Source: Escherichia phage OSYSP
Direction: 5' to 3' (one strand)
DNA: 64,000 nucleotides
Sequence record: MF402939
In this document: positions 899 through 14,449 of the stretch, in pieces
Layout: every line of letters begins with the position of its first letter
Numbering within the stretch: position 1 is the first letter of the stretch
Position numbers and translations under genes: made by a program
The notes under the pieces: model-generated
Databases searched by the model: none
Seen by the model: only the letters and a program-made list of their open reading frames with translations
What the model was told of the DNA's origin: nothing

Positions 899-974
899 TG
901 GTAGTTAGTAGTGGATTTGAACCACTGTAGTCGCTCCGTATGAAGGAGGTGCATAACCGCTCTGCCAACTAACT
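899..974 (-). tRNA. tRNA, anticodon CAT (Met or Ile2)
   Basis: Cloverleaf folded by eye: acceptor AGTTAGT/ACTAACT, T-arm AGTGG-TTCAAAT-CCACT, anticodon loop TTCATAC, encoded CCA. Confidence 0.55.
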
Positions 975-980
975 ATAATT

Positions 981-1056
981 TGGTACTCCGACTTGGGATC
1001 GAACCAAGATTTGACGATTATCGGTCGCCTGTTCTAACCTGTTGAACTATCAGAGC
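981..1056 (-). tRNA. tRNA-Ile (anticodon GAT)
   Basis: Acceptor GCTCTGA/TCGGAGT (two G-U pairs), D-arm GTTC..GAAC, anticodon arm GGCGA-CCGATAA-TCGTC, T-arm CTTGG-TTCGATC-CCAAG, CCA encoded; position 33 is C. Confidence 0.55.
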
Positions 1057-1057
1057 A

Positions 1058-1351
1058 TTACATCATTTCATCTAAGTAAGAGGTATACTGGTATTTAGCT
1101 TCCCCAGTTTTATCTACTTCGACTTCTGTTCTAGGTACTTTTCGTACCAGACCATGAATCATTTTGTACTGAATAGCCTTAGATGGTTCGTGATCTTTTG
1201 GAAATACTTGTTTAACCGTTACTACTTTGAATCCTTCACGAGGAGTTAGCACAACAACTTGATCACCTTCTTTAATTTTCCAGGACTCAGGAAATTCGTA
1301 AGTGTAGCGTTGACCACCAGTTTGGAACACGACAGAAAGATAACGTTTCAT
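1058..1351 (-). CDS. hypothetical protein (97 aa)
   Basis: ORF track; AAGGGA Shine-Dalgarno upstream; sits between tRNA genes, downstream of a consensus promoter. Confidence 0.6.
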   Translation of the reverse strand: MKRYLSVVFQTGGQRYTYEFPESWKIKEGDQVVVLTPREGFKVVTVKQVFPKDHEPSKAIQYKMIHGLVRKVPRTEVEVDKTGEAKYQYTSYLDEMM

Positions 1352-1381
1352 TTGGTTTCCCTTTCATTAATTTATATAAAT

Positions 1382-1410
1382 ATTATAACAAGAAATAAGA
1401 GAGAAGGCAA
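1382..1410 (-). promoter_or_regulatory. sigma70-type early promoter (TTGCCT-17-TATAAT)
   Basis: Read on minus strand; AT-rich upstream region; member of the repeated promoter family in this window. Confidence 0.6.
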
Positions 1411-1425
1411 ATGAATTTTTAAATT

Positions 1426-1500
1426 TGGTGCTCCCACCAGGAATCGAACCCGGTTCAGATGCTTACAAGGCAACTGCATCGCCAGCAATGCTTTAGGAGC
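1426..1500 (-). tRNA. tRNA-Thr (anticodon TGT)
   Basis: Acceptor GCTCCTA/TGGGAGC, anticodon loop CTTGTAA, T-arm CCGGG-TTCGATT-CCTGG, CCA encoded. Confidence 0.6.
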
Positions 1501-1667
1501 AATAAACCCGTTATTTCAACGGGATTTCTTTTTCAAATATAGGGGACTTATCAGACATTACTGTCATAGCCAACTGCTGTAGAAATTCGAATGAGAGTTT
1601 TAAACGTTCTTCTCCTAACTCAACCTCAACGCACTTCATTCGTTTATCTACTTTTAGCTTTAGATTA

Positions 1668-1889
1668 TCAGCCATCTTCGGATTCTCTTTGCTCAGCTAT
1701 TGCTAGCCAGTCTGGTAAAAGAAACTTCGTACGAAATTCTTCATATGTTTCTTCTGGATGAAAGCTATAGCCTTGTTTTTCATCATTTAATAAAACCGAA
1801 CCATCTTCTTGCTCATAAGCTCGGTATGTTTCACCAATAATTAAAACTCGTCTATTAGGATTTTTATTACGAAACTCAAAAACGTCCAT
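1668..1889 (-). CDS. hypothetical protein (73 aa)
   Basis: ORF track; AAGGA SD upstream. Confidence 0.55.
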   Translation of the reverse strand: MDVFEFRNKNPNRRVLIIGETYRAYEQEDGSVLLNDEKQGYSFHPEETYEEFRTKFLLPDWLAIAEQRESEDG

Positions 1890-1904
1890 AACGTTTCCTT
1901 AAAT

Positions 1905-1979
1905 TGGTGCGGGATACGAGAGTCGAACTCGTGTCTACTGGTTGGAAGCCAGTTATTCTAGCCACTGAACTAATCACGC
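1905..1979 (-). tRNA. tRNA-Gly (anticodon TCC)
   Basis: Anticodon arm ACTGG-CTTCCAA-CCAGT, D-arm GTTC-AGTGGCTA-GAAT, CCA encoded; one acceptor mismatch. Confidence 0.6.
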
Positions 1980-1985
1980 ATAAAT

Positions 1986-2061
1986 TGGCTGGAGAAGGAG
2001 GAATCGAACCTACCATTAACGGAGTCAAAGGCCGTTGTGCTAACCATTACACTACTCTCCA
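1986..2061 (-). tRNA. tRNA-Gln (anticodon TTG)
   Basis: Acceptor starts U1 (TGGAGAG/TTCTCCA) with discriminator G as in bacterial tRNA-Gln; anticodon loop CTTTGAC; CCA encoded. Confidence 0.6.
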
Positions 2062-2067
2062 AGTATT

Positions 2068-2143
2068 TGGCTGGGATGCCACGGATCGAACGTGGGACCT
2101 TCGGAGTCAGAGGCCGACGATCTGCCAATTGATCTACATCCCA
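2068..2143 (-). tRNA. tRNA-Gln (anticodon CTG)
   Basis: Acceptor TGGGATG/CATCCCA, anticodon loop CTCTGAC, T-arm CCACG-TTCGATC-CGTGG, discriminator G, CCA encoded. Confidence 0.6.
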
Positions 2144-2156
2144 ATAATTCTTTACT

Positions 2157-2351
2157 CTACGGAAATAGAGTAACTGGCTCAGGTTCTTCAAGGCGCTTAC
2201 CTTCATGATCTACTCGAATGACTCCGCATCCTTCGCAAACCACAACTGCACCATAACCTTCTTTGACTTCGGCTTCTGTAATCAGACCAGCTAAGTCACC
2301 AGTATCTTTACCCCACATATCAATGGAGCATTGTTTGCAGAAATCAGCCAT
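2157..2351 (-). CDS. small zinc-ribbon-like protein (64 aa, CxxC...CxxC)
   Basis: ORF track; two CxxC pairs; AGGA upstream. Confidence 0.55.
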   Translation of the reverse strand: MADFCKQCSIDMWGKDTGDLAGLITEAEVKEGYGAVVVCEGCGVIRVDHEGKRLEEPEPVTLFP

Positions 2352-2376
2352 ATTTTATTTCCTATTTAAGTTAATT

Positions 2377-2453
2377 TGGGGTGGCTAGTGGAATTCGAAT
2401 CCACATAGGCCTGATTCACAATCAGGATCATTAACCAATTATGATATAGCCAC
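2377..2453 (-). tRNA. tRNA-His (anticodon GTG)
   Basis: Acceptor GTGGCTA/TAGCCAC, anticodon arm CCTGA-TTGTGAA-TCAGG, T-arm GTGGA-TTCGAAT-TCCAC, discriminator C, CCA encoded. Confidence 0.7.
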
Positions 2454-2820
2454 AATTGAAAACTCGCAGGGTTAGCGAAACCATCCTCAATTAGCATGTT
2501 CTAGAATACTAATCAAGTTATCTCCTATTGCACGCAGCTCAAGACGAGTACGAATTTTCAATTGTGGCGGCTCTCAGAAACTCTTCTATTCTAGCCTCAG
2601 AAGCTTACCCCCGAACGCATGTCGGGAAAGTCTTTCCAAGCGCATCAAATAGCACCGTTACACTTTGAGCCATTGATGTATCAAGGAATAGAAGGACTTG
2701 AACCTTCATGAGTTAGACCATTTAACTCAACCGCTTTTAAGGTATATTTCTAGGAGTGGATGTTCCTAGTAAACCTATTGGGCAGTCCCGTCTACCAATT
2801 CCGGCATATTCCAAGAATTT

Positions 2821-3003
2821 TTATAAACCAGCGGAAGCCTCATTTAAAGCATCAACAATAGCCTGTTGTTGAGTCCATCCTCTACCAGTAGAATTAACGT
2901 GTGGAAGATATACTTCCCAATAACCGTCTTCTAGTAAGGTTATTTGTGCACTAAACTCTGTGCCATCAGTTAGTGTAACCTTCACAGTTTTCGTTAAAGA
3001 CAT
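2821..3003 (-). CDS. hypothetical protein (60 aa)
   Basis: ORF track only; weak SD. Confidence 0.4.
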   Translation of the reverse strand: MSLTKTVKVTLTDGTEFSAQITLLEDGYWEVYLPHVNSTGRGWTQQQAIVDALNEASAGL

Positions 3004-3019
3004 ATATTACCCTATAAGT

Positions 3020-3109
3020 TGGCAGAAGATAATGGAGTCGAACCATCACCGTATCACTACAGCGGGCTGGTTTTCAAGACCAGTTACGTACCACTACGTC
3101 CTATCTTCT
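3020..3109 (-). tRNA. tRNA-Ser (anticodon TGA), type II
   Basis: Acceptor AGAAGAT/ATCTTCT, anticodon arm CTGGT-CTTGAAA-ACCAG, long variable arm, CCA encoded. Confidence 0.6.
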
Positions 3110-3122
3110 AGTATTTATTATA

Positions 3123-3470
3123 CTAATAGTCACTCGTACTAGTGAAGTTTTCTACTTTTCCACAGATTTTACAAGTCCTACGATGATAATAGGTAATTTT
3201 TACTTTAGACCAGCCATCGTGATCATTACCTAGGTTTTCTGTTACTCCCCAAGTATGAGAACACTCATTTTCAATTTGCTTAGTAAGAGCGTTATAGCGA
3301 GTATAAAACTCCTCCTGAGCAATAGCAAATTCTTTCTGTAGTTTATCACGAGCAATAATAGCACGTTCCAGATATGTTAAATCAGGCATTCCAGCTTTTT
3401 CAGCTGCATCTATAATCTTATCTTCATCTAAAGATGCTAAAAACTCTAGAGCTTTATCTTTTGCTAGCAT
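3123..3470 (-). CDS. hypothetical protein (115 aa) with C-terminal zinc-ribbon-like motif
   Basis: ORF track; GAGGT SD; C-terminal C..H...CKICG. Confidence 0.6.
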   Translation of the reverse strand: MLAKDKALEFLASLDEDKIIDAAEKAGMPDLTYLERAIIARDKLQKEFAIAQEEFYTRYNALTKQIENECSHTWGVTENLGNDHDGWSKVKITYYHRRTCKICGKVENFTSTSDY

Positions 3471-3489
3471 TATTATTACCTCAATTGTT

Positions 3490-3580
3490 TGGCGGAAGAG
3501 GAGAGATTTGAACTCTCAAGCCGTTTTACCAGTCAGCCACTTTCCAAGCGGTTTTCGTCGCCAATTCGATTTGCTCTTCC
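3490..3580 (-). tRNA. tRNA-Ser (anticodon GGA), type II
   Basis: Acceptor GGAAGAG/CTCTTCC, T-arm GAGAG-TTCAAAT-CTCTC, anticodon loop TTGGAAA with 4-bp stem, long variable arm, CCA encoded. Confidence 0.5.
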
Positions 3581-3692
3581 AATAATAAGATGATGCCTCT
3601 ATCACACCAGGCAGTTACGCCTCGCTGGGATTCGAACCCATTAAAACAGCTCAACCGAGATAGTAGGTTTAATTTACTCTGACCATCAAATT

Positions 3693-3769
3693 TGGTGCGT
3701 GACAAGGGATTCGAACCCTCAAAACCCGACTTCTAAGGACGGTATGTATGCCAATTCCATCAATCACGC
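3693..3769 (-). tRNA. tRNA, anticodon TAG (Leu CUA reader?) with short variable arm
   Basis: Acceptor GCGTGAT/GTCACGC, anticodon arm CCGTC-CTTAGAA-GTCGG, T-arm GAGGG-TTCGAAT-CCCTT, discriminator A, CCA encoded; 77 nt, not the type II length expected for Leu. Confidence 0.45.
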
Positions 3770-3774
3770 GTATT

Positions 3775-3853
3775 TGGTGGAGGATAACGAATTCGAATCG
3801 TTCTGATGTCCTCGGTGCAAGCGAGGTGTCCACCCCTAGCAGACCCATCCCCC
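3775..3853 (-). tRNA. tRNA-Ala (anticodon TGC)
   Basis: Acceptor GGGGGAT/ATCCTCC with G3-U70 pair (Ala identity), anticodon arm CCTCG-CTTGCAC-CGAGG, T-arm AACGA-TTCGAAT-TCGTT, CCA encoded. Confidence 0.65.
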
Positions 3854-4092
3854 AAATTCTTTAGTTTACTAAGGCTATTAGCTCGGCGTAACTACAGCAC
3901 CTTCGCTTCGAGCGGAAGGAACCGCGTCATCTCGCAAACCCGATACACTATTCAGTTGCCGTTGAATCTAGTGGACTAATCTAGAACTTCTCCCGAATCG
4001 TAGGGATCGTGCTTTTTGGCAGCCAGTCCTAGGTCGAGCTAATACCTTAGTGAACTATGATGGGGATTTCTCCCCTATCAATTAATATAAAT

Positions 4093-4121
4093 ATTATAAC
4101 AAGAAATTAAGCATTAAGCAA
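4093..4121 (-). promoter_or_regulatory. sigma70-type promoter (TTGCTT-17-TATAAT) driving leftward transcription into ORF-free region 3854-4092
   Basis: Consensus hexamers with 17-nt spacer on minus strand; overlaps stop of CDS 4114-4473. Confidence 0.6.
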
Positions 4122-4473
4122 GTACATTTTTGCAGATTTCTTGTAGTTCCTTTACATCACGAACGTAAAGGTAGTCTGAACTTCCAGAGTGCATACTTTG
4201 CATAAACACACCCTCATCTGGCGCAGCATCCTTCAAAGTAATTCCTAACCAAAAAGCGGCAAAACGAGGTGTTACCTCACCTTGACTTGCCTTGAATACA
4301 TCGGCTTCTGTGATCTCCTGACCAGTAGAAAGTCCCATATACGGTACGTTCAGATCAATATCTTTGTAGAATTCAGCTAGGTCTTGTTCGAAGTCCCAAC
4401 CTTTAGAGATAGCGAACTCTATTGTTACATGACCGAAATAGCCTTGAACCTTGCTTGATAATTGCATTTGCAA
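4114..4473 (-). CDS. hypothetical protein (119 aa)
   Basis: ORF track; AAGGA SD. Confidence 0.6.
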   Translation of the reverse strand: MQMQLSSKVQGYFGHVTIEFAISKGWDFEQDLAEFYKDIDLNVPYMGLSTGQEITEADVFKASQGEVTPRFAAFWLGITLKDAAPDEGVFMQSMHSGSSDYLYVRDVKELQEICKNVLA

Positions 4474-4492
4474 TTCCTTATTTTGAGTTAAT

Positions 4493-4566
4493 TGGTACTC
4501 GGTGATAGAATCGAACTATCGCAACCGCCGTGTAAAGACGGGGTTCTCCCATTAAACTAACCGAGC
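4493..4566 (-). tRNA. tRNA-Val (anticodon TAC)
   Basis: Acceptor GCTCGGT/ACCGAGT, anticodon arm CCGTC-TTTACAC-GGCGG, T-arm GATAG-TTCGATT-CTATC, CCA encoded. Confidence 0.6.
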
Positions 4567-4699
4567 AAAAGATTTGCTACTAAAAATGCTTCGAACAGAA
4601 ATTCACAAAATCCCGCTAAAAACATACCTATTGTAAAATCGGCAGAAAATACATAGGAATCTTTTATTTTCTGCTTCATTAAGTAAAACCAGATAGTCA

Positions 4700-5017
4700 T
4701 TAAAATCTCTCCATTCTAAAGCCAATGAAGTAAGGTGCATTACACGGAACATGCTTAAGATCTTTAAGGGTAATTTTACGTCCTAAGCGTCGTTCCATAC
4801 AAGTGAAACATAGAACAATATCTTTGGGCTGCTCTTTTCTTATCTGATCCCAGACCCAATCTTCAACCATACACATTTCATGGTATTGTTCACAGTCTCG
4901 ACAATAATGACACTGATGTTCTGGTACTTTTTGATTTTTAATACACAGTTCAGTAAAGCGTTTTCCGGCTCTGCCAGACATTTCTGATATTGTTTCTAGA
5001 ACTTTGTTAATATTCAT
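4700..5017 (-). CDS. cysteine/histidine-rich hypothetical protein (105 aa)
   Basis: ORF track; AAGGA SD; multiple CxxC/HxxC motifs. Confidence 0.6.
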   Translation of the reverse strand: MNINKVLETISEMSGRAGKRFTELCIKNQKVPEHQCHYCRDCEQYHEMCMVEDWVWDQIRKEQPKDIVLCFTCMERRLGRKITLKDLKHVPCNAPYFIGFRMERF

Positions 5018-5034
5018 AACAAATTCCTTTAAAT

Positions 5035-5113
5035 TGGTAGATCGCCTGGGACTCGAACCCAGAACCTTCCGATTAAAAGTCGGATGCTACTAAACCTATT
5101 GAGCTAGCGATCT
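5035..5113 (-). tRNA. tRNA-Lys (anticodon TTT)
   Basis: Acceptor AGATCGC/GCGATCT, anticodon arm TCCGA-CTTTTAA-TCGGA, T-arm CTGGG-TTCGAGT-CCCAG, CCA encoded. Confidence 0.6.
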
Positions 5114-5114
5114 A

Positions 5115-5282
5115 TTAATAACCATTGTATACTTCTTTAATAGAGTGAACTTTCAAGTAAGGGTGATTAGTACTAAACTCTACCATTACTTCATCCCAAT
5201 TTTTACCATAATGAGCAAGTAAGGATTTTGATGTATTCTTACCTAAACGTTTGTCACTTACTACTAATCGAAATACTTTCAT
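5115..5282 (-). CDS. small hypothetical protein (55 aa)
   Basis: Not in ORF track (under 60 aa); ATG preceded by GAGGA at 7-nt spacing; fills gap between two tRNAs. Confidence 0.4.
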   Translation of the reverse strand: MKVFRLVVSDKRLGKNTSKSLLAHYGKNWDEVMVEFSTNHPYLKVHSIKEVYNGY

Positions 5283-5302
5283 TTCGAAATCCTCTATTAA
5301 AG

Positions 5303-5380
5303 TGGAAGCGGGTGCAGGAATCGAACCTACCTCTTTCTAGCTTATGAGACTAGCGATCTCTACCAGAGATCTAACCCGCA
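5303..5380 (-). tRNA. tRNA, anticodon CAT (Met or Ile2)
   Basis: Anticodon arm CTAGT-CTCATAA-GCTAG, T-arm GTAGG-TTCGATT-CCTGC, CCA encoded; position 1-72 is T-T. Confidence 0.55.
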
Positions 5381-5386
5381 ATTGTT

Positions 5387-5464
5387 TGGTCTCCGTGGGA
5401 GGATTTGAACCCCCGACCCTATCGCCCCAAACGAAACGCTCTGGCCAAACTGAGCTACACGGAG
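5387..5464 (-). tRNA. tRNA-Pro (anticodon TGG)
   Basis: Acceptor CTCCGTG/CACGGAG, D-arm GCTC..GAGC, anticodon loop TTTGGGG, T-arm GGGGG-TTCAAAT-CCTCC, CCA encoded. Confidence 0.55.
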
Positions 5465-5468
5465 AATA

Positions 5469-5627
5469 TTATTTCTTTAACCACAGCAAAGATAAGCCCA
5501 GCATACTAAAACCGCTAACTAATCCGATACATTTTTCTTCTATAGTAAGAGTATCTAGATTAAATGCTGTTATAGCTATTGGCATACACCATAATGCCAT
5601 AAAAACTTGAGCTATCTTGTGTTTCAT
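5469..5627 (-). CDS. small hydrophobic peptide (52 aa, likely membrane)
   Basis: Not in ORF track; ATG with AAGGA SD immediately downstream of promoter 5660-5688; translation MKHKIAQVFMALWCMPIAITAF... is hydrophobic. Confidence 0.4.
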   Translation of the reverse strand: MKHKIAQVFMALWCMPIAITAFNLDTLTIEEKCIGLVSGFSMLGLSLLWLKK

Positions 5628-5659
5628 TTTGCTTTCCTTCTCTTCACTTTATAAAATAT

Positions 5660-5688
5660 ATTATACAGAGAATTAAGCAGAATAGCAA
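5660..5688 (-). promoter_or_regulatory. sigma70-type early promoter (TTGCTA-17-TATAAT)
   Basis: Consensus hexamers on minus strand with AT-rich upstream element. Confidence 0.65.
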
Positions 5689-5999
5689 ATGAATTTTTAA
5701 TAAATTTACTTATTGTGTAGGCCACCTGGAGGCTATGAACCCCACGGCTGACAAAGAAGTTTGCGAGACCTCTCTTAAATGCCAGAATAGACCCGCCTAT
5801 CTATCGGAACCTACTCAATAAGTAAACTTTCGTTTACTTACGCCCCGTTAGAGGGACTTTAGCGACTAGAACCGGCCGGAAACTTTATCGCCTTGTTTAT
5901 TAAGAAGTCCGTTCTCTAGGAAGCAGAAATCTAAATTTGGTGGAGTTTGGGAGACTACGTGTTACTTCCTCTGTCCGAAGTAGGACAGTGCTTAACCGT

Positions 6000-6191
6000 T
6001 TAGCTGAACCCCTTTAAATATTTATACGTTTTATCTAACAACTCTTGTTTAGAGATTATACCATCACGATATTCAGTAATAAAATTATCTATGTTGGAGT
6101 CCTTTGATACAACGTTATCAGATAGCTCTGTGAATTTATTTGCTAAAAGATCTAATTCTTTGTAATTCACAAAACCTCCAGAATATGTCAT
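6000..6191 (-). CDS. hypothetical protein (63 aa)
   Basis: ORF track; no clear SD. Confidence 0.35.
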   Translation of the reverse strand: MTYSGGFVNYKELDLLANKFTELSDNVVSKDSNIDNFITEYRDGIISKQELLDKTYKYLKGFS

Positions 6192-6431
6192 TCTAGTCAG
6201 GACTTGAACCTGCTATCACTTGTGCGGACTTACGAGAACCATTCTTTCACTCGAATCGAACGAGCTTCTGCCCTAGCCAAGCTGGTTTCCCCATCAACCA
6301 CGCTAGAATGTTTGATTGTTTTCAGTGCAAGAGTCCGAGTCTTGGACACGACCGCTTCGCAAATACATAGGCAGCTTATCATGAGTCGGCACTTCCGAAT
6401 TGCTAGCTCCGTGTTCTGCACTGAAATTTTG

Positions 6432-6779
6432 TTAATTTAATAGTAAAGTACGATCTACTTCACCATTAATTGTTCGGCATTCTTCTGGGATTGCCGGTGT
6501 AGTCTTATATTCCCACCATTCAGAACCATCATATTCACCACGTTCTAACCAAGTTCCATCGGTAAACCATACGTTACCATAAAGCAATTGTCCGCCGAAA
6601 CCAGAATCATATTTAAAGTCTAGATTATCTAGAAAATCTTCAATATCTTTTTCTGTATAACCTACGGGTAATACCCAAACTTCTTTATCCCCATAATAAC
6701 CGAATTCTATCTTAATACACTTAACTTCAGAATTAGTATTCTTTAGGGCAAGTAACAATTCTTCTTTAGCATTAATCAT
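6432..6779 (-). CDS. hypothetical protein (115 aa)
   Basis: ORF track; weak SD. Confidence 0.55.
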   Translation of the reverse strand: MINAKEELLLALKNTNSEVKCIKIEFGYYGDKEVWVLPVGYTEKDIEDFLDNLDFKYDSGFGGQLLYGNVWFTDGTWLERGEYDGSEWWEYKTTPAIPEECRTINGEVDRTLLLN

Positions 6780-6805
6780 AGCGTATTTCTCGTGCTAGTT
6801 TAGTT

Positions 6806-6882
6806 TGGCGCGACCGATGGGATTCGAACCCACATTCTCTCCCGTGACAGGGGAGTACCATTACCAAGCCAGCCCCGGTCGC
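6806..6882 (-). tRNA. tRNA-Asp (anticodon GTC)
   Basis: Acceptor GCGACCG/CGGTCGC, anticodon arm CTCCC-CTGTCAC-GGGAG, T-arm GTGGG-TTCGAAT-CCCAT, discriminator G, CCA encoded. Confidence 0.7.
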
Positions 6883-6891
6883 ATAATTCAT

Positions 6892-7077
6892 TTACTCAGC
6901 TTTGAGTTTTTCAATAGCTGCATTAAGTTCCTTAAGAAACTCTTTTCGTACATTAAGACGATTAAGACTTACTAGTATATCATGTTTAAGTTCTTCGATG
7001 TATTTCTTCTCAACTTCAATATTGTTGATAGTGCTATCACGATGAACTTCTAGCTGTGCAATTACATTCTTGGACAT
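6892..7077 (-). CDS. hypothetical protein (61 aa, predicted coiled coil)
   Basis: ORF track; GAGGA SD. Confidence 0.5.
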   Translation of the reverse strand: MSKNVIAQLEVHRDSTINNIEVEKKYIEELKHDILVSLNRLNVRKEFLKELNAAIEKLKAE

Positions 7078-7104
7078 GCTTGTTTCCTCAGTTATTAATG
7101 AAAA

Positions 7105-7177
7105 TGGTATCTGTGGCTGAATTCGATGTCAGCAATGATAGCTGGTTGGCTACCGGTTTACTTAACTCTACACAGAA
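7105..7177 (-). tRNA. tRNA-like element, non-canonical (possible TCA-containing anticodon loop)
   Basis: 3' CACAGAT-A-CCA pairs with 5' TTCTGTG; stem CAGC/GCTG flanks loop TATCATT; D-arm and T-loop are atypical. Confidence 0.3.
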
Positions 7178-7179
7178 TT

Positions 7180-7262
7180 TGGCGGGCCGTGTAGGATTCG
7201 AACCTACGTTGTCTTTCGACATGGATTAACAGTCCACCGCCAAACCGCTTGGCTAACGACCC
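7180..7262 (-). tRNA. tRNA, anticodon GTT (Asn-type anticodon arm) with extended variable hairpin
   Basis: Acceptor GGGTCGT/ACGGCCC, D-arm GCCA-AGCGGTT-TGGC, anticodon arm GTGGA-CTGTTAA-TCCAT, 13-nt variable hairpin GTCGAAAGAC, T-arm GTAGG-TTCGAAT-CCTAC, CCA encoded. Confidence 0.55.
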
Positions 7263-7269
7263 TAAAATT

Positions 7270-7345
7270 TGGACGACCGCATGAGATTTGAACTCACATA
7301 AAAAGGATTTGCAATCCTTCGCCTAAGCCATTCAGCCAACGGTCG
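7270..7345 (-). tRNA. tRNA-Cys (anticodon GCA)
   Basis: Acceptor CGACCGT/GCGGTCG, anticodon arm AAGGA-TTGCAAA-TCCTT, T-arm GTGAG-TTCAAAT-CTCAT, CCA encoded. Confidence 0.65.
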
Positions 7346-7523
7346 ATTTATCTTGTTTTTCGAGATCTTCAAATTCTAAATCATTGAAGTTCCCTAGAGT
7401 ACGTGTATAGAACCCGTCTCCTGAGTCATAGCCTGATTTAGCACAATCACACATTTTAAATTCACGAAGATGTGTGAAGACATGTTCAGAACCACAACAC
7501 TTAAATATAACTAATCGTTTCAT
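7332..7523 (-). CDS. hypothetical Cys-containing protein (63 aa)
   Basis: ORF track; start overlaps stop of upstream ORF; last codons overlap the 5' end of tRNA-Cys. Confidence 0.45.
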   Translation of the reverse strand: MKRLVIFKCCGSEHVFTHLREFKMCDCAKSGYDSGDGFYTRTLGNFNDLEFEDLEKQDKSTVG

Positions 7524-7760
7524 TTACTCTCCAGTAGGATTATCTAAGGTATACTGAGTAGCTACTCCAGCTACATCTAGCAGACTTCCCATATTCCTAA
7601 TAACTCTAGAGATTGCGTCACCTTCGGCAGTTTCTGTAAACACCTTAAGTCTTAAGAAATCGCCACCACCATCCATACCAGAGAAAATATTTAGTAAGCG
7701 AAGCATTACCAACTTACGTTCATTCAATTCTTGTTCTGTCATGTTGCTTCTCCAGTTCAA
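7524..7760 (-). CDS. hypothetical protein (78 aa)
   Basis: ORF track; GGAGA SD. Confidence 0.6.
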   Translation of the reverse strand: MNWRSNMTEQELNERKLVMLRLLNIFSGMDGGGDFLRLKVFTETAEGDAISRVIRNMGSLLDVAGVATQYTLDNPTGE

Positions 7761-7792
7761 TTTATGTAATTATTATATAGAACTTTTGGAAA

Positions 7793-8065
7793 CTAAGCAA
7801 CTACATTTTTTAAGAATTTGATGCCTTTCTTTTTCTTCTTATATTTCCACGTTAATGGATTTTGTCGATTATGAACGCTTGAGATCTTTGTCTCGTCAAA
7901 GTTCTTCAATATCATGTAATCACAGGATAATTGTTCTAGTGGAATGTGATCACCGTCAAAAGCGTATACATAAGGCTGTTGACTAGCACGATAATGATAG
8001 ACTTTGTTAATTCTACGTTTCAGCGACTTATCCGCGCAGTAAATAAAGAAGTTTTCAGGATGCAT
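7793..8065 (-). CDS. hypothetical protein (about 90 aa)
   Basis: ORF track ORF 7793-8080 trimmed to internal ATG (MHPENFF...) that has AGGAG at 6-nt spacing; the first ATG abuts the tRNA 3' end. Confidence 0.5.
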   Translation of the reverse strand: MHPENFFIYCADKSLKRRINKVYHYRASQQPYVYAFDGDHIPLEQLSCDYMILKNFDETKISSVHNRQNPLTWKYKKKKKGIKFLKNVVA

Positions 8066-8082
8066 CAGCATCTCCTTCAATT

Positions 8083-8157
8083 TGGTGCACCCTGTTCGAA
8101 TTGAACGAACCTCTCAAGCTCTTCAGGCAAGCGCTAATCCATCTCAGCTAAAGGTGC
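8083..8157 (-). tRNA. tRNA, probable anticodon GAA (Phe?), weak anticodon stem
   Basis: Acceptor GCACCTT/AGGGTGC, T-arm GTTCG-TTCAATT-CGAAC, loop CTGAAGA at standard positions 32-38 but stem has two T-T mismatches; CCA encoded. Confidence 0.4.
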
Positions 8158-8163
8158 AAATTT

Positions 8164-8234
8164 TGGCAGGGGTAAAGGTATTCGAAACCTTTTCATGGGT
8201 TTTGGAGGCCCATTTGCAACCTATGCGTACCCCA
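8164..8234 (-). tRNA. tRNA-Trp (anticodon CCA), compact D-arm
   Basis: T-arm AAGGT-TTCGAAT-ACCTT, anticodon arm TGGGC-CTCCAAA-ACCCA, 3' TACCCCT-G-CCA; T1-T72 mismatch. Confidence 0.45.
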
Positions 8235-8243
8235 ATTGTTAAT

Positions 8244-8318
8244 TGGCACACCCACGGAGAATTGAACTCCGATTCTCAGATTGAAATCCTGATGTCCTAG
8301 CCATTAGACGATAGGTGC
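8244..8318 (-). tRNA. tRNA-Glu (anticodon TTC)
   Basis: Acceptor GCACCTA/TGGGTGT (G-U pairs), anticodon arm TCAGG-ATTTCAA-TCTGA, T-arm CGGAG-TTCAATT-CTCCG, CCA encoded. Confidence 0.6.
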
Positions 8319-8326
8319 ATTAAATT

Positions 8327-8414
8327 TGGTGGGCGTTAATGGAGTCGAACCACTCGAGTCGCAATGACCAGGGATTTACAATCCCCTCCGCTACCACTTA
8401 CGGAATAAACGCCC
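8327..8414 (-). tRNA. tRNA-Tyr (anticodon GTA), type II
   Basis: Acceptor GGGCGTT/AACGCCC, anticodon arm GGGGA-TTGTAAA-TCCCT, long variable arm, T-arm TGG-TTCGACT-CCA, CCA encoded. Confidence 0.7.
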
Positions 8415-8542
8415 ATATTTAGAAGCATTCAAATACTTGTTTAAACACTTTTAAATATGTTTCCAAATTAGATAACTATTATATCAAGTTTTAAGGCACT
8501 GAGCAAGTCAGATTTTGAAGAACTTGCTCAGTGCTGTATTAG

Positions 8543-8818
8543 TTAGTCGAACTTAGGAGTGACAATTAAAGAGAATGGGAGTTCGAAAACTTCTTCACCC
8601 TCATTACTAACAGTAACTACACGACCTTTAAGTTCAGACATTGAAATATCAATATCAGCTTTTGCATCTGGAGCCATTCCAGCTTCAACACATTTAGCTT
8701 TAACTTCCGGAAGGAGTTCTACATCGTAGAAATAAAGCCATTCAATCTCACCTTCCCAGCCTTCCCAGGATTTACAGATTGCACTTTCAATACCAGTTGC
8801 TATAACACGATTTTGCAT
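8543..8818 (-). CDS. hypothetical protein (91 aa)
   Basis: ORF track; AGGAG SD; followed on minus strand by a 13-bp-stem hairpin (about 8470-8515). Confidence 0.6.
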   Translation of the reverse strand: MQNRVIATGIESAICKSWEGWEGEIEWLYFYDVELLPEVKAKCVEAGMAPDAKADIDISMSELKGRVVTVSNEGEEVFELPFSLIVTPKFD

Positions 8819-8908
8819 TCGTTAACTCCTTCATCAATTTATATAACTATTATATCAGAAATTTAAAGTAAAAGGCAAGTACATTTTTAAAAATTCTGTT
8901 CGGAGGAG

Positions 8909-9115
8909 CTAAACTCCAGATTCTTCGGCCAAGTCTAGACTAATAAGAGTTATAGCCATAATTGCTGCACCGTGTTCTTTTTCTCCGGTGTTTTTAGCAG
9001 AGCCTATAATATCCTTAATCTGTTCGTAATAACTTTTTACTTCTTGTTCAATGCCTGCCTCGGCTATCATGCCTTTAGTCATGAATCGTTGCATGGTAAT
9101 TTCAGGATTAGCCAT
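8909..9115 (-). CDS. hypothetical protein (68 aa)
   Basis: ORF track; ATG overlaps stop of upstream small ORF (ATGGCTAA). Confidence 0.55.
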   Translation of the reverse strand: MANPEITMQRFMTKGMIAEAGIEQEVKSYYEQIKDIIGSAKNTGEKEHGAAIMAITLISLDLAEESGV

Positions 9116-9275
9116 GTTGTTTCTCCAGTTTCATTTTTAATAGTTTACAGATGAAATCAACGTCTTCATCTGTGCCTAAGTCTCTATCTTCAAGGGTCGC
9201 CTTGAAGTTTTTCGTCAATTCCATAAGGATGACTTCCCTAGAACGACGTGTTGGTGGCGGAGGAGGTCTATACAT
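9108..9275 (-). CDS. small proline-rich hypothetical protein (55 aa)
   Basis: Not in ORF track; ATG with AAGGA SD; stop overlaps next start; translation MYRPPPPPTRRSREV... Confidence 0.4.
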   Translation of the reverse strand: MYRPPPPPTRRSREVILMELTKNFKATLEDRDLGTDEDVDFICKLLKMKLEKQHG

Positions 9276-9290
9276 CTTAATTCCTTAATT

Positions 9291-9367
9291 TGGTAGGGGT
9301 GGTGGGATTCGAACCCACAAAACCTGAATTTTAAGTCCAGTACCTATGCCAATTCGATTACACCCCC
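9291..9367 (-). tRNA. tRNA, anticodon TAA (Leu UUA reader?) with short variable arm
   Basis: Acceptor GGGGGTG/CACCCCT, anticodon arm CTGGA-CTTAAAA-TTCAG, T-arm GTGGG-TTCGAAT-CCCAC, discriminator A, CCA encoded; 77 nt. Confidence 0.45.
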
Positions 9368-9474
9368 ATGTAATCAGTTTATTAGTTGATACATATTATA
9401 GCCTAAAGAAAACCCTACTACTAATCCTACGAACCAACCAATATAATAATCTTTTAATTTCACGGGTGTCAACC

Positions 9475-9654
9475 TCATTCAATATCTAGAGAAATACCAC
9501 AGGTAGGATTAATGCCTGTGCCTTTGCACGTAGGACAAACCCAGATATTACAGAATGTATCCCCTGCTTCTGCATCAGAACTTTCTCCAACTCCTAGACA
9601 GTCAGGACAGGCACATTCTTCTAGCTCTTGCTTGAGTTCTTGAAACTTAGACAT
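9475..9654 (-). CDS. small zinc-ribbon protein (59 aa, two CxxC pairs)
   Basis: Not in ORF track; ATG with AAGGA SD; translation MSKFQELKQELEECACPDCLG...CPTCKGTG. Confidence 0.45.
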   Translation of the reverse strand: MSKFQELKQELEECACPDCLGVGESSDAEAGDTFCNIWVCPTCKGTGINPTCGISLDIE

Positions 9655-9663
9655 ATAGTTTCC

Positions 9664-9852
9664 TTATTCAATTACTTTTGAGGCTTCAAGGGAGTCGATA
9701 TAGTGTACGTTTTCTACCATAATCATATAATCTGCCACTTTATCCATAGCCTGAACTTCAGAGGTAGCCCTGGCTAACCTATATCCTTTTTTATATTCAT
9801 CCGGGTATTCCCTATCTGGAATAAACACAACACAAACTAGGTATAGTTCCAC
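9664..9852 (-). CDS. hypothetical protein (62 aa)
   Basis: ORF track. Confidence 0.45.
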   Translation of the reverse strand: MELYLVCVVFIPDREYPDEYKKGYRLARATSEVQAMDKVADYMIMVENVHYIDSLEASKVIE

Positions 9853-9873
9853 TTGTAACCTCTCTAATCAAGA

Positions 9874-9951
9874 TGGTGGCTCCCCGAGGATTCGAACCTA
9901 CGTACCTTCCGGTTATGAGCCGGGTGCTCATACCATATGAGCTTGAGAACC
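9874..9951 (-). tRNA. tRNA, anticodon CAT, initiator-like anticodon arm
   Basis: Acceptor GGTTCTC/GGGAGCC, anticodon arm CCGG-CTCATAA-CCGG followed by GAAGG as in initiator tRNA; T-stem imperfect; CCA encoded. Confidence 0.45.
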
Positions 9952-9957
9952 AGAATT

Positions 9958-10046
9958 TGGCGGAAGAAGTGGGAATCGAACCCACAAGGCTATATTTCAA
10001 ACCGACAGATTAGCAATCTGCTGCAATACCGTTATGCTATTCTTCC
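9958..10046 (-). tRNA. tRNA-Ser (anticodon GCT), type II
   Basis: Acceptor GGAAGAA/TTCTTCC, anticodon arm GCAGA-TTGCTAA-TCTGT, long variable arm, T-arm GTGGG-TTCGATT-CCCAC, CCA encoded. Confidence 0.65.
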
Positions 10047-10067
10047 GAATTTATAAGATATATTATA

Positions 10068-13543: not shown

Positions 13544-13580
13544 ATATTTCCTTTGTTTTAGTTACAGTTAATAAAATTGA

Positions 13581-13652
13581 CCGAGGTGACAGGATTCGAA
13601 CCTGCATAAAGGAATTTAGAAGACTCCTGCCTCTCCCTTAGACTACACCCCG
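13581..13652 (-). tRNA. tRNA-Arg (anticodon TCT), CCA not encoded
   Basis: Acceptor CGGGGTG/CACCTCG, anticodon arm GGAGT-CTTCTAA-ATTCC, T-arm GCAGG-TTCGAAT-CCTGT. Confidence 0.55.
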
Positions 13653-14152
13653 TTTAAGTATTTTTAAGAACTCTCGTAAAAACTCTTAAAAATACAGACG
13701 ATACCGGGAGAGTCATAAGTCTCACTCATTAAGTATTTCAAGACAAAATACAGTAACGTCTATTATTTTCCAGTTTAAGTCAGGGTGACTTAGTGGTTAT
13801 GTCCTGCGGTATATTGAGGACTCGGTTAGGCTTGGGGTCATGACTTCCCGCCTTTTGCTGCTACTCAACAGGAGTTATCGCGAATTACCTGTGCTATTGT
13901 GCACCATTAGTGACATCTCTCATGTCAGCATTTCCCACTTTGTGGATAGCTTGAAAAACTACTCCGATATGGAGAAAGAACTTCACTATCCTAGAATACC
14001 TTCTAAAGTTCTTCTTTAGCCTGGACATAGTTAAATCGTAATAAAACTATTCAGCAGACTGGTTGGTTAGTCTGGAACCAACTACCGCGTGGTTTAGGCA
14101 GTGCGCAACTAACCTCGGAAGCTTTTACGTTAAAAGCATCAGTTATCCAGTT

Positions 14153-14230
14153 CTTACCGACCGTAGGATTCGAACCTACATCTTCCACCAGTTACGGCTT
14201 GATAATACCAATTATACTAGGACGGCAGTG
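14153..14230 (-). tRNA. tRNA-like element, non-canonical (no foldable anticodon stem)
   Basis: T-arm GTAGG-TTCGAAT-CCTAC, D-loop-like AATTGGTA, acceptor GCCGTCC/GGTCGGT with one mismatch; no anticodon arm can be formed. Confidence 0.3.
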
Positions 14231-14449
14231 TTACTACATAAGTGATTTCCACACCCCACTATTTATAAATTAGAGAAGAGTTTAGGGGAGAGGTTTCAGA
14301 CGCCTCATTTTACACGTTCTAGCCACTAACCGGGATTGCCGCCCCCTGTGTACTAGTTTTACAACTAACCCACCGACTCTATTCAATGCGCTCCGGTTGG
14401 GATTCTGCACTCAGCGTAATCGGCTCGCTGTTCCCTAATTTATGAATAT

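What the first reader, a model, noticed from the sequence alone, without database searches (positions are those of the whole stretch)
900..10050. Large tRNA cluster with several non-canonical members
About 26 tRNA genes were folded by eye on the minus strand. Unusual features: three separate CAT-anticodon tRNAs (899-974, 5303-5380, 9874-9951; Met, initiator-like and possibly Ile2); two tRNAs with Leu-type anticodons TAG and TAA but type I length (3693-3769, 9291-9367); a GTT-anticodon tRNA with a 13-nt variable hairpin (7180-7262); a 73-nt tRNA-like element whose loop contains TCA, possibly opal-suppressor-like (7105-7177); and several 1-72 mismatches. These could alter decoding or act as decoys for host tRNA-targeting nucleases.
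Basis: seen in the sequence. Interest (0 to 1): 0.55.

Follow-up and report, generated by a model that had tools for sequence, protein, structure and literature searches.

The report
T5-type phage tRNA gene cluster

Summary
The window comes from a T5-like phage (Tequintavirus, about 93% identical to phage chee24). Positions 899-10046 are its tRNA-rich region. It holds 25 tRNA genes on the minus strand, all with an encoded CCA end, plus a 73-nt tRNA-like RNA. Every flagged item is already annotated in T5 (NC_005859) or phage 5 (AJ604531):
- The three CAU tRNAs are Met, initiator fMet and Ile2.
- The 73-nt element is T5 "RNA3", 100% identical. It is not a tRNA by covariance model, and its UCA does not sit in an anticodon loop.
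- The 77-nt Leu(UAG) and Leu(UAA) are the phage 5 L1 and L2 alleles. L2 is recorded there as an effective amber suppressor.
- The 83-nt Asn is the phage 5 allele, also recorded as a suppressor.

I add three results. The short-variable-loop Leu tRNAs keep the E. coli LeuRS identity set and covary strongly across Demerecviridae. The Asn variable-arm hairpin covaries and also occurs in T4-like phages. Only fMet, the Trp-like gene and RNA3 have true 1-72 mismatches.

Published work shows that T5 tRNAs replace host tRNAs cut by PARIS AriB or depleted by retron-Eco7 PtuAB, and that a T5-like phage tRNA-Lys counters PrrC. The anticodon set also matches phage-enriched codons. Verdict: already known, low interest.

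The parts
899..974 (-). tRNA-Met(CAU), elongator; equals T5 tRNAM
   Evidence: ARAGORN; Rfam 49.9 bits. 98.7% identical to T5 T5t01. A1-U72, C11:G24, U4-A69/A5-U68, A73.
981..1056 (-). tRNA-Ile(GAU)
   Evidence: This allele has no close match in T5 or chee24.
1426..1500 (-). tRNA-Thr(UGU)
   Evidence: 96% identical to T5. Its anticodon-stem 3' strand GCAUC is identical to T5 Thr, one of the three T5 tRNAs that together counter PARIS.
1905..2143 (-). tRNA-Gly(UCC) 1905-1979, tRNA-Gln(UUG) 1986-2061, tRNA-Gln(CUG) 2068-2143
   Evidence: Both Gln tRNAs have U1-A72 and G73.
2377..2453 (-). tRNA-His(GUG) with G-1:C73
   Evidence: 100% identical to T5.
3020..3109 (-). tRNA-Ser(UGA), type II
   Evidence: ARAGORN. 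Rfam hits only the tRNA-Sec model, below threshold. 19-nt variable arm, G73.
3490..3580 (-). tRNA-Ser(GGA), weak or aberrant
   Evidence: ARAGORN only at lowered threshold. No Rfam tRNA match at E<=10. 100% identical to the annotated chee24 tRNA-Ser. T5 annotates its own tRNAS2(GGA) as not convertible to a suppressor, but the window allele has no BLAST match in T5.
3693..3769 (-). tRNA-Leu(UAG), type I length (5-nt variable loop); equals the phage 5/BF23 L1 allele
   Evidence: Identical to phage 5 tRNAL1 and chee24. T5 has an 85-nt type II allele in the same slot. Cloverleaf covaries across the family.
3775..3853 (-). tRNA-Ala(UGC), 79 nt, G3.U70, G8G9, 7-nt variable loop
   Evidence: ARAGORN. 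No Rfam tRNA match. Matches the phage 5 tRNAA sequence apart from one extra G at the annotated 5' end; that gene is annotated as convertible to an amber suppressor.
4493..4566 (-). tRNA-Val(UAC)
5035..5113 (-). tRNA-Lys(UUU)
   Evidence: The allele differs from T5 Lys. It reads U39 C40 G41 where E. coli has U39 C40 A41 and T5 has A39 C40 C41.
5303..5380 (-). tRNA-fMet(CAU), initiator; equals T5 tRNAfM
   Evidence: 100% identical to T5 T5t14, annotated 'initiator tRNA fMet'. U1.U72 mismatch, A11:U24, G2-C71/C3-G70/G4-C69.
5387..5464 (-). tRNA-Pro(UGG)
   Evidence: C1-G72, A73.
6806..6882 (-). tRNA-Asp(GUC)
7105..7177 (-). T5 'RNA3', a tRNA-like stable RNA that is not a tRNA
   Evidence: 100% identical to T5 misc_RNA rna3, 33877-33949. 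No Rfam match. Fold shows an acceptor-like stem, a T-like hairpin with an 8-nt loop and a 6-bp hairpin, z=-3.0. Present in 352 phage records, 351 of them at >=90% identity. One covarying pair, G-C to G.U to A-U, in the T-like stem.
7180..7262 (-). tRNA-Asn(GUU) with a 13-nt variable-arm hairpin; equals phage 5 tRNAN
   Evidence: 100% identical to phage 5 tRNAN, annotated as convertible to an amber suppressor. Variable-arm helix covaries.
7270..7345 (-). tRNA-Cys(GCA), U73
8083..8157 (-). tRNA-Phe(GAA)
8164..8234 (-). tRNA-Trp(CCA)-like, 71 nt, reduced D arm, U1.U72; equals T5 tRNAW
   Evidence: Rfam 23.1 bits, below the gathering score. 98.6% identical to T5 T5t20, annotated as not convertible to a suppressor.
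8244..8414 (-). tRNA-Glu(UUC) 8244-8318 and tRNA-Tyr(GUA) 8327-8414 (type II)
   Evidence: T5 tRNA-Tyr counters retron-Eco7 (PMC11555353).
9291..9367 (-). tRNA-Leu(UAA), type I length; equals phage 5 L2
   Evidence: Identical to phage 5 tRNAL2, annotated 'effective amber suppressor'. 291 phage records at >=99% identity. Cloverleaf covaries.
9874..9951 (-). tRNA-Ile2(CAU) candidate; equals T5 tRNAI2
   Evidence: Rfam 40.3 bits. ARAGORN only at lowered threshold. 97.4% identical to T5 T5t23 'tRNAI2(CAU)'. A8, and a T stem with two mismatches or a bulge.
9958..10046 (-). tRNA-Ser(GCU), type II
   Evidence: 100% identical to T5. No encoded CCA.

Best explanation
The region is the tRNA-rich region of a T5-like phage (Demerecviridae, Tequintavirus). 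It is an early-transcribed block of 25 tRNA genes, plus tRNA-Arg 3.5 kb away, mixed with small ORFs and several stable tRNA-like RNAs.

The tRNAs are ordinary decoders, presumably charged by host synthetases. They give the phage its own supply of adaptors for all 20 amino acids. That supply keeps translation running when host tRNAs are cut or depleted by defence nucleases, and it serves A/U-ending codons that the AT-rich phage uses far more than its host.

The 'odd' members are established alleles of this family:
- Met, initiator fMet and Ile2 carry the three CAU anticodons.
- Leu(UAG) and Leu(UAA) have lost the long variable arm but keep the LeuRS identity set.
- Asn has gained a small variable-arm hairpin.
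- The 73-nt element is the non-tRNA 'RNA3'. It is probably released from the Asn transcript by tRNA-processing enzymes because it keeps an acceptor/T-arm-like minihelix and an ACCA end. That last step is inference.

Shown here: gene content, structures, homology and covariation. Taken from the literature: anti-defence function in T5 and the T5-like phage SP15. Taken from GenBank annotation notes: suppressor activity. Inferred: that the same functions hold for these particular alleles.
For: - Identity of the region. It is 93.5% identical over 91% of its length to chee24 and its relatives, and 589 phage records match. Gene order is the same as in T5 and phage 5.
- One-to-one matches of the flagged items to annotated T5 or phage 5 features.
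- Canonical identity elements: G-1:C73 in His, G3.U70 in Ala, U1-A72/G73 in Gln, U73 in Cys, C1-G72/A73 in Pro, G73 in Ser, Asn, Asp and Glu, and A73 in Leu and Tyr.
- Type I Leu. U8, A14, A15, G18G19, A20a, U48 and A73 are invariant in 8 sequences from 5 genera. 15 of 20 pairs show compensatory change and 98.8% of cells are paired, against 0 of 500 shuffles. These are the E. coli LeuRS determinants, and the long arm is not required by that enzyme (PMC9976931).
- Asn variable arm. 3 of 4 pairs are compensatory and 100% of cells are paired in the 6 phages that have the arm.
- Suppressor notes for phage 5 tRNAN, tRNAL2 and tRNAA, and for T5 tRNAI2.
- Codon use in 50 window ORFs, per thousand: CUA 17.9, UUA 20.5, AUA 10.8, AGA 8.4. 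These are read by Leu(UAG), Leu(UAA), Ile2 and Arg(UCU). By my recollection of standard tables, E. coli uses them at roughly 4, 14, 4-5 and 2 per thousand.
- Anti-defence role of T5-family tRNAs: PMC11464382, PMC12409363, PMC11555353.
Against: - No expression or aminoacylation data exist for this particular phage.
- E. coli LeuRS failed to charge the only type I bacterial tRNA-Leu tested, S. coelicolor tRNALeu(CAA) (PMC6614811). Leucylation of the phage type I Leu tRNAs is therefore inferred from identity elements and a GenBank suppressor note, not shown.
- The window's Asn allele keeps the host-like AriB site U36AAUC|C41, and its Lys differs from the host only at position 41. These alleles may not resist PARIS as the T5 alleles do.
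- Ser(GGA), the Trp-like gene and Ala are poor or absent matches to the covariance model. T5 annotates its Ser(GGA) and Trp as non-suppressing, so some members may be weak or decaying.
- The Ile2 assignment rests on T5 annotation and partial determinants only.
Confidence: 0.9

Rival explanations
1. Codon-supply only. The cluster exists solely to match the tRNA pool to the AT-rich phage's codon usage, and the structural oddities are neutral drift. Defence evasion would be irrelevant for these alleles.
For: Half of the anticodons have U34. Phage-enriched codons (CUA, UUA, AUA, AGA, GUA, GCA) all have a cognate phage tRNA. The window's Asn keeps the host-like AriB cleavage-site sequence.
Against: T5 tRNA-region deletion mutants are viable but become sensitive to PARIS and retron-Eco7, and single tRNAs restore infection (PMC11464382, PMC11555353). 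PMC11464382 states that codon frequencies do not directly support the supply hypothesis. The two roles are also not mutually exclusive.
Confidence: 0.3
2. Decoy or competitor. The non-canonical members (type I Leu, long-arm Asn, RNA3, Trp-like) are not used in translation. They bind and titrate host tRNA-targeting nucleases or tRNA-modifying toxins.
For: PMC12409363 raises the possibility that over-expressed viral tRNAs inhibit AriB by competition. RNA3 and the other T5 'stable RNAs' have no known function. RNA3 is very strongly conserved, at >=90% in 351 of 352 matching records.
Against: Phage 5 notes say the 83-nt Asn and the 77-nt Leu(UAA) work as amber suppressors once given a CUA anticodon, so they are charged and used on ribosomes. 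Their cloverleaves and synthetase identity elements are under strong purifying selection. No binding data exist.
Confidence: 0.08
3. Recoding. The 73-nt element, or another member, is an opal (UGA) suppressor or otherwise changes decoding.
For: The element ends in ACCA, has an acceptor-like stem and contains UCA.
Against: No tRNA covariance-model match at E<=10. There is no D arm. The UCA can be placed in a 7-nt loop only by using the strand that otherwise forms the T-like stem, so the two structures exclude each other. U33 would be an A. UGA terminates 7 of 50 long ORFs normally. T5 annotates the element as an RNA of unknown function, not a tRNA.
Confidence: 0.02
4. Decay. The odd members are pseudogenes left by recombination and homing-endonuclease traffic in a dispensable region.
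For: The region is dispensable in the laboratory (PMC11464382). Some records label members 'tRNA-Pseudo' or 'tRNA-OTHER'. Ser(GGA), Trp-like and Ala score poorly against the model. T5 notes say its Ser2 and Trp do not become suppressors.
Against: Leu and Asn show compensatory substitutions and conserved identity elements across genera and have suppressor activity. The Ala allele is annotated as a working suppressor. Decay is plausible only for the Trp-like and Ser(GGA) genes.
Confidence: 0.1

Closest known systems
tRNA gene region of phages T5 (NC_005859/AY543070), BF23 and Salmonella phage 5 (AJ604531); the 'tRNA-rich region' of T5-like phages
   Same: Same gene order, same strand, same interspersed small ORFs and stable RNAs. 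Individual genes are 96-100% identical to T5, phage 5 or chee24 alleles. fMet, His, Cys, Ser(GCU), Arg and RNA3 are 100% identical to T5.
   Different: The allele mix is mosaic. Leu(UAG), Ala, Lys, Gly and Gln follow chee24/phage 5 rather than T5. Asn follows phage 5, not T5 or chee24. Ile(GAU) and Pro match neither T5 nor chee24. No HNH homing-endonuclease-sized ORF lies inside this copy, whereas T5 carries four (hegA, hegC, hegD, hegE) within the stretch examined and phage 5 carries hegB.
Type I tRNALeu(CAA) of Streptomyces coelicolor and animal mitochondrial tRNALeu
   Same: A tRNA-Leu without the long variable arm (PMC6614811; PMC9976931).
   Different: The phage versions work in enterobacterial hosts whose own tRNA-Leu are all type II. 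They keep the E. coli-type set (A73, A14, A15-U48, G18G19, A20a). E. coli LeuRS did not charge the Streptomyces type I tRNA, and charging of the phage ones has not been tested in any source I could read.
[quoted passage not shown]
   Same: A variable-arm hairpin on a tRNA whose anticodon belongs to a type I family.
   Different: The phage Asn arm is short (3-4 bp, mostly with a GNRA-type loop). The tRNA keeps Asn features (GUU anticodon, G73), and nothing suggests mischarging with Leu or Ser.
Phage T4 tRNA cluster and mycobacteriophage tRNA sets with nuclease-evading anticodon loops
   Same: Phage-encoded tRNA arrays proposed or shown to replace host tRNAs hit by anticodon nucleases. T4 also carries an Ile(CAU).
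   Different: T4 has 8 tRNAs, whereas this set covers all 20 amino acids. The long-arm Asn is shared with some T4-like Karamvirus and Klebsiella phages, but a copy in T4 itself was not examined.

Membership tests
T5-family tRNA-rich region | High nucleotide identity and conserved gene order with the T5/BF23/phage 5 tRNA region | tested here: met
Canonical tRNA (Rfam RF00005 / ARAGORN cloverleaf) | Covariance-model score at or above the gathering score, or a default ARAGORN call, for Leu(UAG), Leu(UAA), Asn and the three CAU genes | tested here: met
   Scores are 47.5, 57.4, 59.0, 49.9, 43.6 and 40.3 bits against a gathering score of 29.
Canonical tRNA (Rfam RF00005 / ARAGORN cloverleaf) | The same test for the 73-nt element 7105-7177 | tested here: not met
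   No tRNA hit at E<=10 on an 88-nt stretch. No minus-strand ARAGORN call at lowered threshold.
Opal-suppressor tRNA | UCA anticodon at positions 34-36 of a 7-nt loop, with U33, inside a complete cloverleaf | tested here: not met
   Fold. The UCA lies in a stem strand. The alternative loop would have A33 and destroys the T-like arm. UGA is used as a normal stop.
Bacterial initiator tRNA-fMet | Unpaired 1-72 | tested here: met
   U1.U72 in 5303-5380.
Bacterial initiator tRNA-fMet | A11:U24 in the D stem, where elongators have Y11:R24 (my knowledge of E. coli initiator features) | tested here: met
   The D arm GATC...GATC gives A11:U24. The other two CAU tRNAs have C11:G24.
Bacterial initiator tRNA-fMet | Three consecutive G-C pairs at 29-41, 30-40 and 31-39 | tested here: not met
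   The stem CUAGU/GCUAG gives A29-U41, G30-C40 and U31.G39. The discriminator is also U73, not A73. Assignment as initiator therefore rests on T5 annotation and the 1975 biochemistry cited in PMC4810235.
tRNA-Ile2 (lysidine-modified CAU) | CAU anticodon plus TilS acceptor-stem determinants C4-G69/C5-G68 (recalled from work on E. coli TilS) | tested here: inconclusive
   9874-9951 has U4-A69 and C5-G68. The Met gene 899-974 has U4-A69 and A5-U68, as in E. coli tRNA-Met. BLAST against E. coli genomes was uninformative. AUA is frequent in the phage, at 10.8 per thousand.
tRNA-Ile2 (lysidine-modified CAU) | Lysidine at C34 and charging with Ile | not testable with these tools
   Needs mass spectrometry or aminoacylation assays.
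Type II (long-variable-arm) tRNA-Leu | Variable arm of more than 10 nt forming a stem-loop | tested here: not met
   The variable loop is 5 nt, GUUUU, in both window Leu genes. T5's allele has 13 nt.
Substrate of E. coli-type LeuRS | A73, U8:A14, A15-U48, G18G19, A20a (PMC9976931) | tested here: met
   All are present and invariant in 8 type I phage Leu tRNAs. Actual leucylation was not tested.
AriB (PARIS)-resistant phage tRNA alleles | Substitutions at or near U36AAUC|A41 relative to the host tRNA | tested here: inconclusive
   Thr carries the T5-like change (G39). Lys differs only at position 41 (G). Asn is identical to host Asn in this hexamer.

The most novel reading that the evidence does not exclude
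T5-like phages have switched tRNA structural class on purpose. They dropped the long variable arm from tRNA-Leu, giving type I Leu that enterobacterial LeuRS must still charge, against the published view that E. coli LeuRS charges only type II. They added a variable-arm hairpin to tRNA-Asn, and to tRNA-Thr in phage 5. The changed shape would let these tRNAs escape host defence nucleases or toxins that recognise tRNA shape, while staying good substrates for synthetases and ribosomes. The long-arm Asn allele spreads horizontally between Demerecviridae and T4-like phages because it carries such an advantage.
Probability: 0.15. Interest if true: 0.55.

Novelty: already known. Interest (0 to 1): 0.2.

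Why it matters
As a finding it matters little. It re-discovers the T5 tRNA-rich region, which has been sequenced and annotated since the 1980s-2000s and is now a textbook case of phage tRNAs countering PARIS, retron-Eco7 and PrrC.

One residual point has some value. Two structural alleles are genuine, conserved and widespread, yet I found no discussion of them in the searchable literature. The first is the type I tRNA-Leu, found across Demerecviridae and in one other phage genus. The second is a tRNA-Asn with a covarying variable-arm hairpin, shared with T4-like phages. The type I Leu contradicts the general statement that tRNA-Leu carries a long arm everywhere except animal mitochondria. Both would be simple substrates for testing how LeuRS, AsnRS and tRNA-targeting defence nucleases read tRNA shape.

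Tried and rejected
- BLAST of the Ile2 candidate against 5,426 E. coli genomes, to assign it by similarity. Only weak partial hits to tRNA-Arg and tRNA-Met appeared, so it was uninformative.
- Literature searches for a description of short-arm tRNA-Leu or long-arm tRNA-Asn in T5-like phages. None was found. I found only the S. coelicolor type I Leu paper and general identity reviews.
- The 1975 paper on T5 Met/fMet tRNAs is not in the library, so it is cited only through PMC4810235's reference list.
- Reading the 73-nt element as a tRNA or suppressor. Rejected.
- A consensus promoter scan. The total number of sites is not above shuffles (23 against 25.0 +/- 4.6). The best minus-strand sites (10090-10062, 8878-8849, 5688-5660, 1410-1382) share the TTGC..-17/18-TATAAT form, and I read them as likely counterparts of T5's annotated early promoters, without mapping them. 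The scan alone proves nothing.
- A search for homing-endonuclease ORFs inside the cluster. No ORF of that size lies in 900-10050.
- The protein-homology and structure tools were not used, because the finding concerns RNA genes.

Full report
**What is there**

ARAGORN finds 23 tRNA genes in the window, all on the minus strand, and 22 of them lie in 899-10046. The Rfam tRNA model reaches its gathering score at 22 loci, 20 of them in the region, with E-values from 5e-12 to 5e-5. The two tools differ in a few places:
- Rfam adds a third CAT gene at 9877-9951 (40.3 bits). ARAGORN reports it only at a lowered threshold.
- Rfam misses the two type II genes Ser(UGA) and Tyr, which hit the tRNA-Sec model below threshold.
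- Rfam misses Ala(UGC) entirely.
- A lowered ARAGORN threshold also recovers Ser(GGA) at 3490-3580.
- A weak Rfam hit of 23.1 bits marks a Trp(CCA)-like gene at 8164-8234.

tRNA-Arg(UCU) at 13581-13652 completes a set for all 20 amino acids.

**Where it comes from**

The 9.4-kb stretch is 93.5% identical over 91% of its length to Tequintavirus chee24 and its relatives, and it matches 589 phage records. Gene order is that of the classical tRNA gene region of T5, BF23 and Salmonella phage 5. The T5 RefSeq record and the phage 5 record AJ604531 carry detailed annotation, including notes on which tRNAs become amber suppressors when given a CUA anticodon.

**The three CAU tRNAs**

- 899-974 is 98.7% identical to T5 tRNAM.
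- 5303-5380 is 100% identical to T5 tRNAfM, annotated "initiator tRNA fMet".
- 9874-9951 is 97.4% identical to T5 tRNAI2(CAU).

The structures fit these labels only in part. The fMet gene has a U1.U72 mismatch, A11:U24 and G2-C71/C3-G70/G4-C69. It lacks the three G-C pairs at the bottom of the anticodon stem and has U73. The Met gene has A1-U72, C11:G24 and U4-A69/A5-U68, as I recall for E. coli tRNA-Met. The Ile2 candidate has C5-G68, A8 and an irregular T stem.

A BLAST of the Ile2 candidate against E. coli genomes gave nothing useful. Its identity therefore rests on T5 annotation, its suppressor note and the phage's heavy use of AUA, at 10.8 per thousand. That T5 encodes both Met- and fMet-accepting tRNAs was reported in 1975. 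I could only see that paper in the reference list of PMC4810235.

**The short Leu tRNAs**

Both window Leu genes are 77 nt with a 5-nt variable loop GUUUU. Rfam aligns Leu(UAG) end to end as a type I tRNA. They are identical to phage 5 tRNAL1 and tRNAL2, and L2 is annotated there as an "effective amber suppressor". T5 itself carries an 85-nt type II Leu(UAG) with a 13-nt arm in the same slot. Phage bobsandoy has an intermediate 9-nt version.

The type I form is common. 291 records hold a copy at least 99% identical to Leu(UAA). It occurs in Tequintavirus, Epseptimavirus, Priunavirus, Novosibvirus, a Vibrio Jesfedecavirus and an Aeromonas Lahexavirus.

In an alignment of eight such genes the cloverleaf is 98.8% paired, and 15 of 20 pairs show changes on both sides. 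None of 500 shuffles and no slid register comes close. U8, A14, A15, G18G19, A20a, U48 and A73 are invariant. These are the E. coli LeuRS determinants, and the long arm is dispensable for that enzyme (PMC9976931). There is one caution. E. coli LeuRS did not charge the type I tRNALeu(CAA) of Streptomyces coelicolor, and those authors describe it as charging only type II (PMC6614811). Leucylation of the phage tRNAs is therefore likely but not demonstrated in anything I could read.

**The long-arm Asn**

The 83-nt Asn has the variable region GUC-GAAA-GAC-AAC. It is 100% identical to phage 5 tRNAN, annotated as convertible to an amber suppressor. 212 records carry it at 99% identity or more. T5 and chee24 instead have a 78-nt allele with a 5-nt loop.

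Homologues with 13-15-nt arms occur in Providencia, Proteus and Salmonella Demerecviridae. They also occur in T4-like phages, namely Karamvirus KKP_3262 and a Klebsiella myovirus. Across the six sequences that have the arm, its helix is 100% paired. Three of its four pairs change on both sides (G-C to A-U, C-G to U-A, C-G to A-U). The hairpin is therefore a selected structural feature, not an alignment artefact. Phage 5 also has an 87-nt tRNA-Thr with a 15-nt variable region.

**The 73-nt element**

This element is 100% identical to T5 misc_RNA "RNA3, putative tRNA-like RNA" and sits in the same place, two bases after tRNA-Asn. Rfam gives no tRNA match even at E<=10 on an 88-nt stretch.

The minimum-free-energy fold has z=-3.0 and three elements. 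One is a 6-bp acceptor-like stem with U1.U72, A73 and CCA. The second is a T-like hairpin with an 8-nt loop CAUCGAAU. The third is a 6-bp hairpin with the loop CAACCA. About 16 unpaired bases sit where a D arm would be. The UCA lies in the hairpin's 3' strand. Placing it in a 7-nt loop needs the strand that forms the T-like stem, and would put A at position 33.

The element is found in 352 records, 351 of them at 90% identity or more. In six variants, one pair of the T-like stem goes from G-C through G.U to A-U, while one variant breaks an acceptor pair. UGA ends 7 of 50 long ORFs. An opal-suppressor reading is therefore not supported. A processed tRNA-like by-product or small RNA of unknown role is the best description.

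**The 1-72 pairs**

True mismatches occur only in fMet, the Trp-like gene and RNA3. Ile(GAU), Val, Glu and Leu(UAA) have G.U pairs.

**Function**

T5 deletion mutants that lack part of this region become sensitive to PARIS. T5 tRNA-Lys, together with Thr and Asn, restores infection, because AriB cuts the host versions between positions 40 and 41 while T5 tRNA-Lys was shown to resist cleavage (PMC11464382, PMC12409363). T5 tRNA-Tyr rescues infection from retron-Eco7 PtuAB, and the tRNA-Lys of the T5-like phage SP15 bypasses PrrC170 (PMC11555353).

The window's codon use also fits supply. CUA, UUA, AUA and AGA run at 17.9, 20.5, 10.8 and 8.4 per thousand. That is several-fold above what I recall for E. 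coli in three of the four codons.

The alleles here differ from T5's in ways that may matter. Thr keeps the T5-type stem. Lys differs from the host only at position 41. Asn is identical to the host in the AriB hexamer. A competitor or decoy role is mentioned only as a possibility in PMC12409363.

**Verdict**

Nothing indicates altered decoding. The type I Leu and arm-bearing Asn alleles are real and under selection, and I found no discussion of them in the literature I could search. That leaves a modest chance of something worth a bench test. Novelty: already known. Interest: 0.2.

Noticed in passing
It is 79 nt, has G8G9 instead of U8, and has a 7-nt variable loop. The Rfam tRNA model does not match it even at E<=10 on a 391-nt stretch, yet ARAGORN calls it at default and it keeps G3.U70. 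The phage 5 tRNAA sequence matches it apart from one extra 5' G and is annotated as a working amber suppressor.
   Followed up: partly
window 3490-3580 (-) and 8164-8234 (-): Ser(GGA) has no Rfam match and is found by ARAGORN only at low threshold. The 71-nt Trp(CCA)-like gene has a 3-bp D stem with a 5-nt loop, a C31.A39 mismatch and U1.U72. T5 notes say its own Ser(GGA) and Trp do not become suppressors, although the window's Ser(GGA) is the chee24 allele rather than T5's. Phage 5 carries a different, 77-nt Trp that does become a suppressor.
   Followed up: partly
window 2455-2815, 3873-4044, 5714-5814, 6186-6310, 13653-14282 (all -): All the other T5 'stable RNAs of unknown function' are present at 92-100% identity: RNAIII 2455-2560, RNAI 2565-2671, RNA1 2672-2815, RNA2H 3873-4044, RNAIV 5714-5814, RNA2 6186-6310 and RNAX 13653-14282. 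RNA1 contains a sub-threshold tRNA-like hit at 2683-2751 (23.9 bits). RNAX contains one above the gathering score at 14155-14226 (35.5 bits), with a poor acceptor stem and no CCA.
   Followed up: partly
window 900-10050 compared with L001 (chee24), L002 (T5), L003 (phage 5): The cluster is a mosaic of allelic cassettes. Ile(GAU) and Pro match neither T5 nor chee24. Asn matches phage 5 only. Leu(UAG), Ala, Lys, Gly and Gln match chee24 but not T5. fMet, His, Cys and Ser(GCU) are identical in all. T5 carries four HNH homing endonuclease genes (hegA, hegC, hegD, hegE) within the stretch examined, and phage 5 carries hegB. This copy has no ORF of that size.
   Followed up: partly
window 7262-7270; L002 10007-10525: Here Asn and Cys are 7 nt apart. 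In T5 and chee24 a 519-nt ORF (T5.069) sits between them and overlaps the 5' end of their different, 78-nt Asn allele. The alternative Asn allele and that ORF may travel together.
   Followed up: no
L007 302-386, L008 303-385 (T4-like Karamvirus and Klebsiella phages): The arm-bearing tRNA-Asn, with the same acceptor stem GGGUCGU/ACGGCCC, also occurs in Straboviridae. This suggests horizontal transfer of the allele between unrelated phage families.
   Followed up: partly
L003 1936-2022 (phage 5); L006 10658-10738 (bobsandoy): Phage 5 has an 87-nt tRNA-Thr(UGU) with a 15-nt variable region, annotated as an effective suppressor. Bobsandoy has a Leu(UAG) with an intermediate 9-nt variable region. 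Variable-arm length seems unusually labile in this phage family.
   Followed up: no
window 5035-5113 and 7180-7262 (-): At the PARIS AriB cleavage site (U36AAUC|N41), the window's Asn is identical to host tRNA-Asn and its Lys differs from the host only by A41G. The resistant T5 alleles differ at positions 39 and 41. This phage might therefore be PARIS-sensitive like Bas33 and Bas34, but that is an inference only.
   Followed up: no
window 13578-13652 (-): tRNA-Arg(UCU) is followed by UCA rather than CCA. It is the only tRNA of the set without an encoded CCA end.
   Followed up: no
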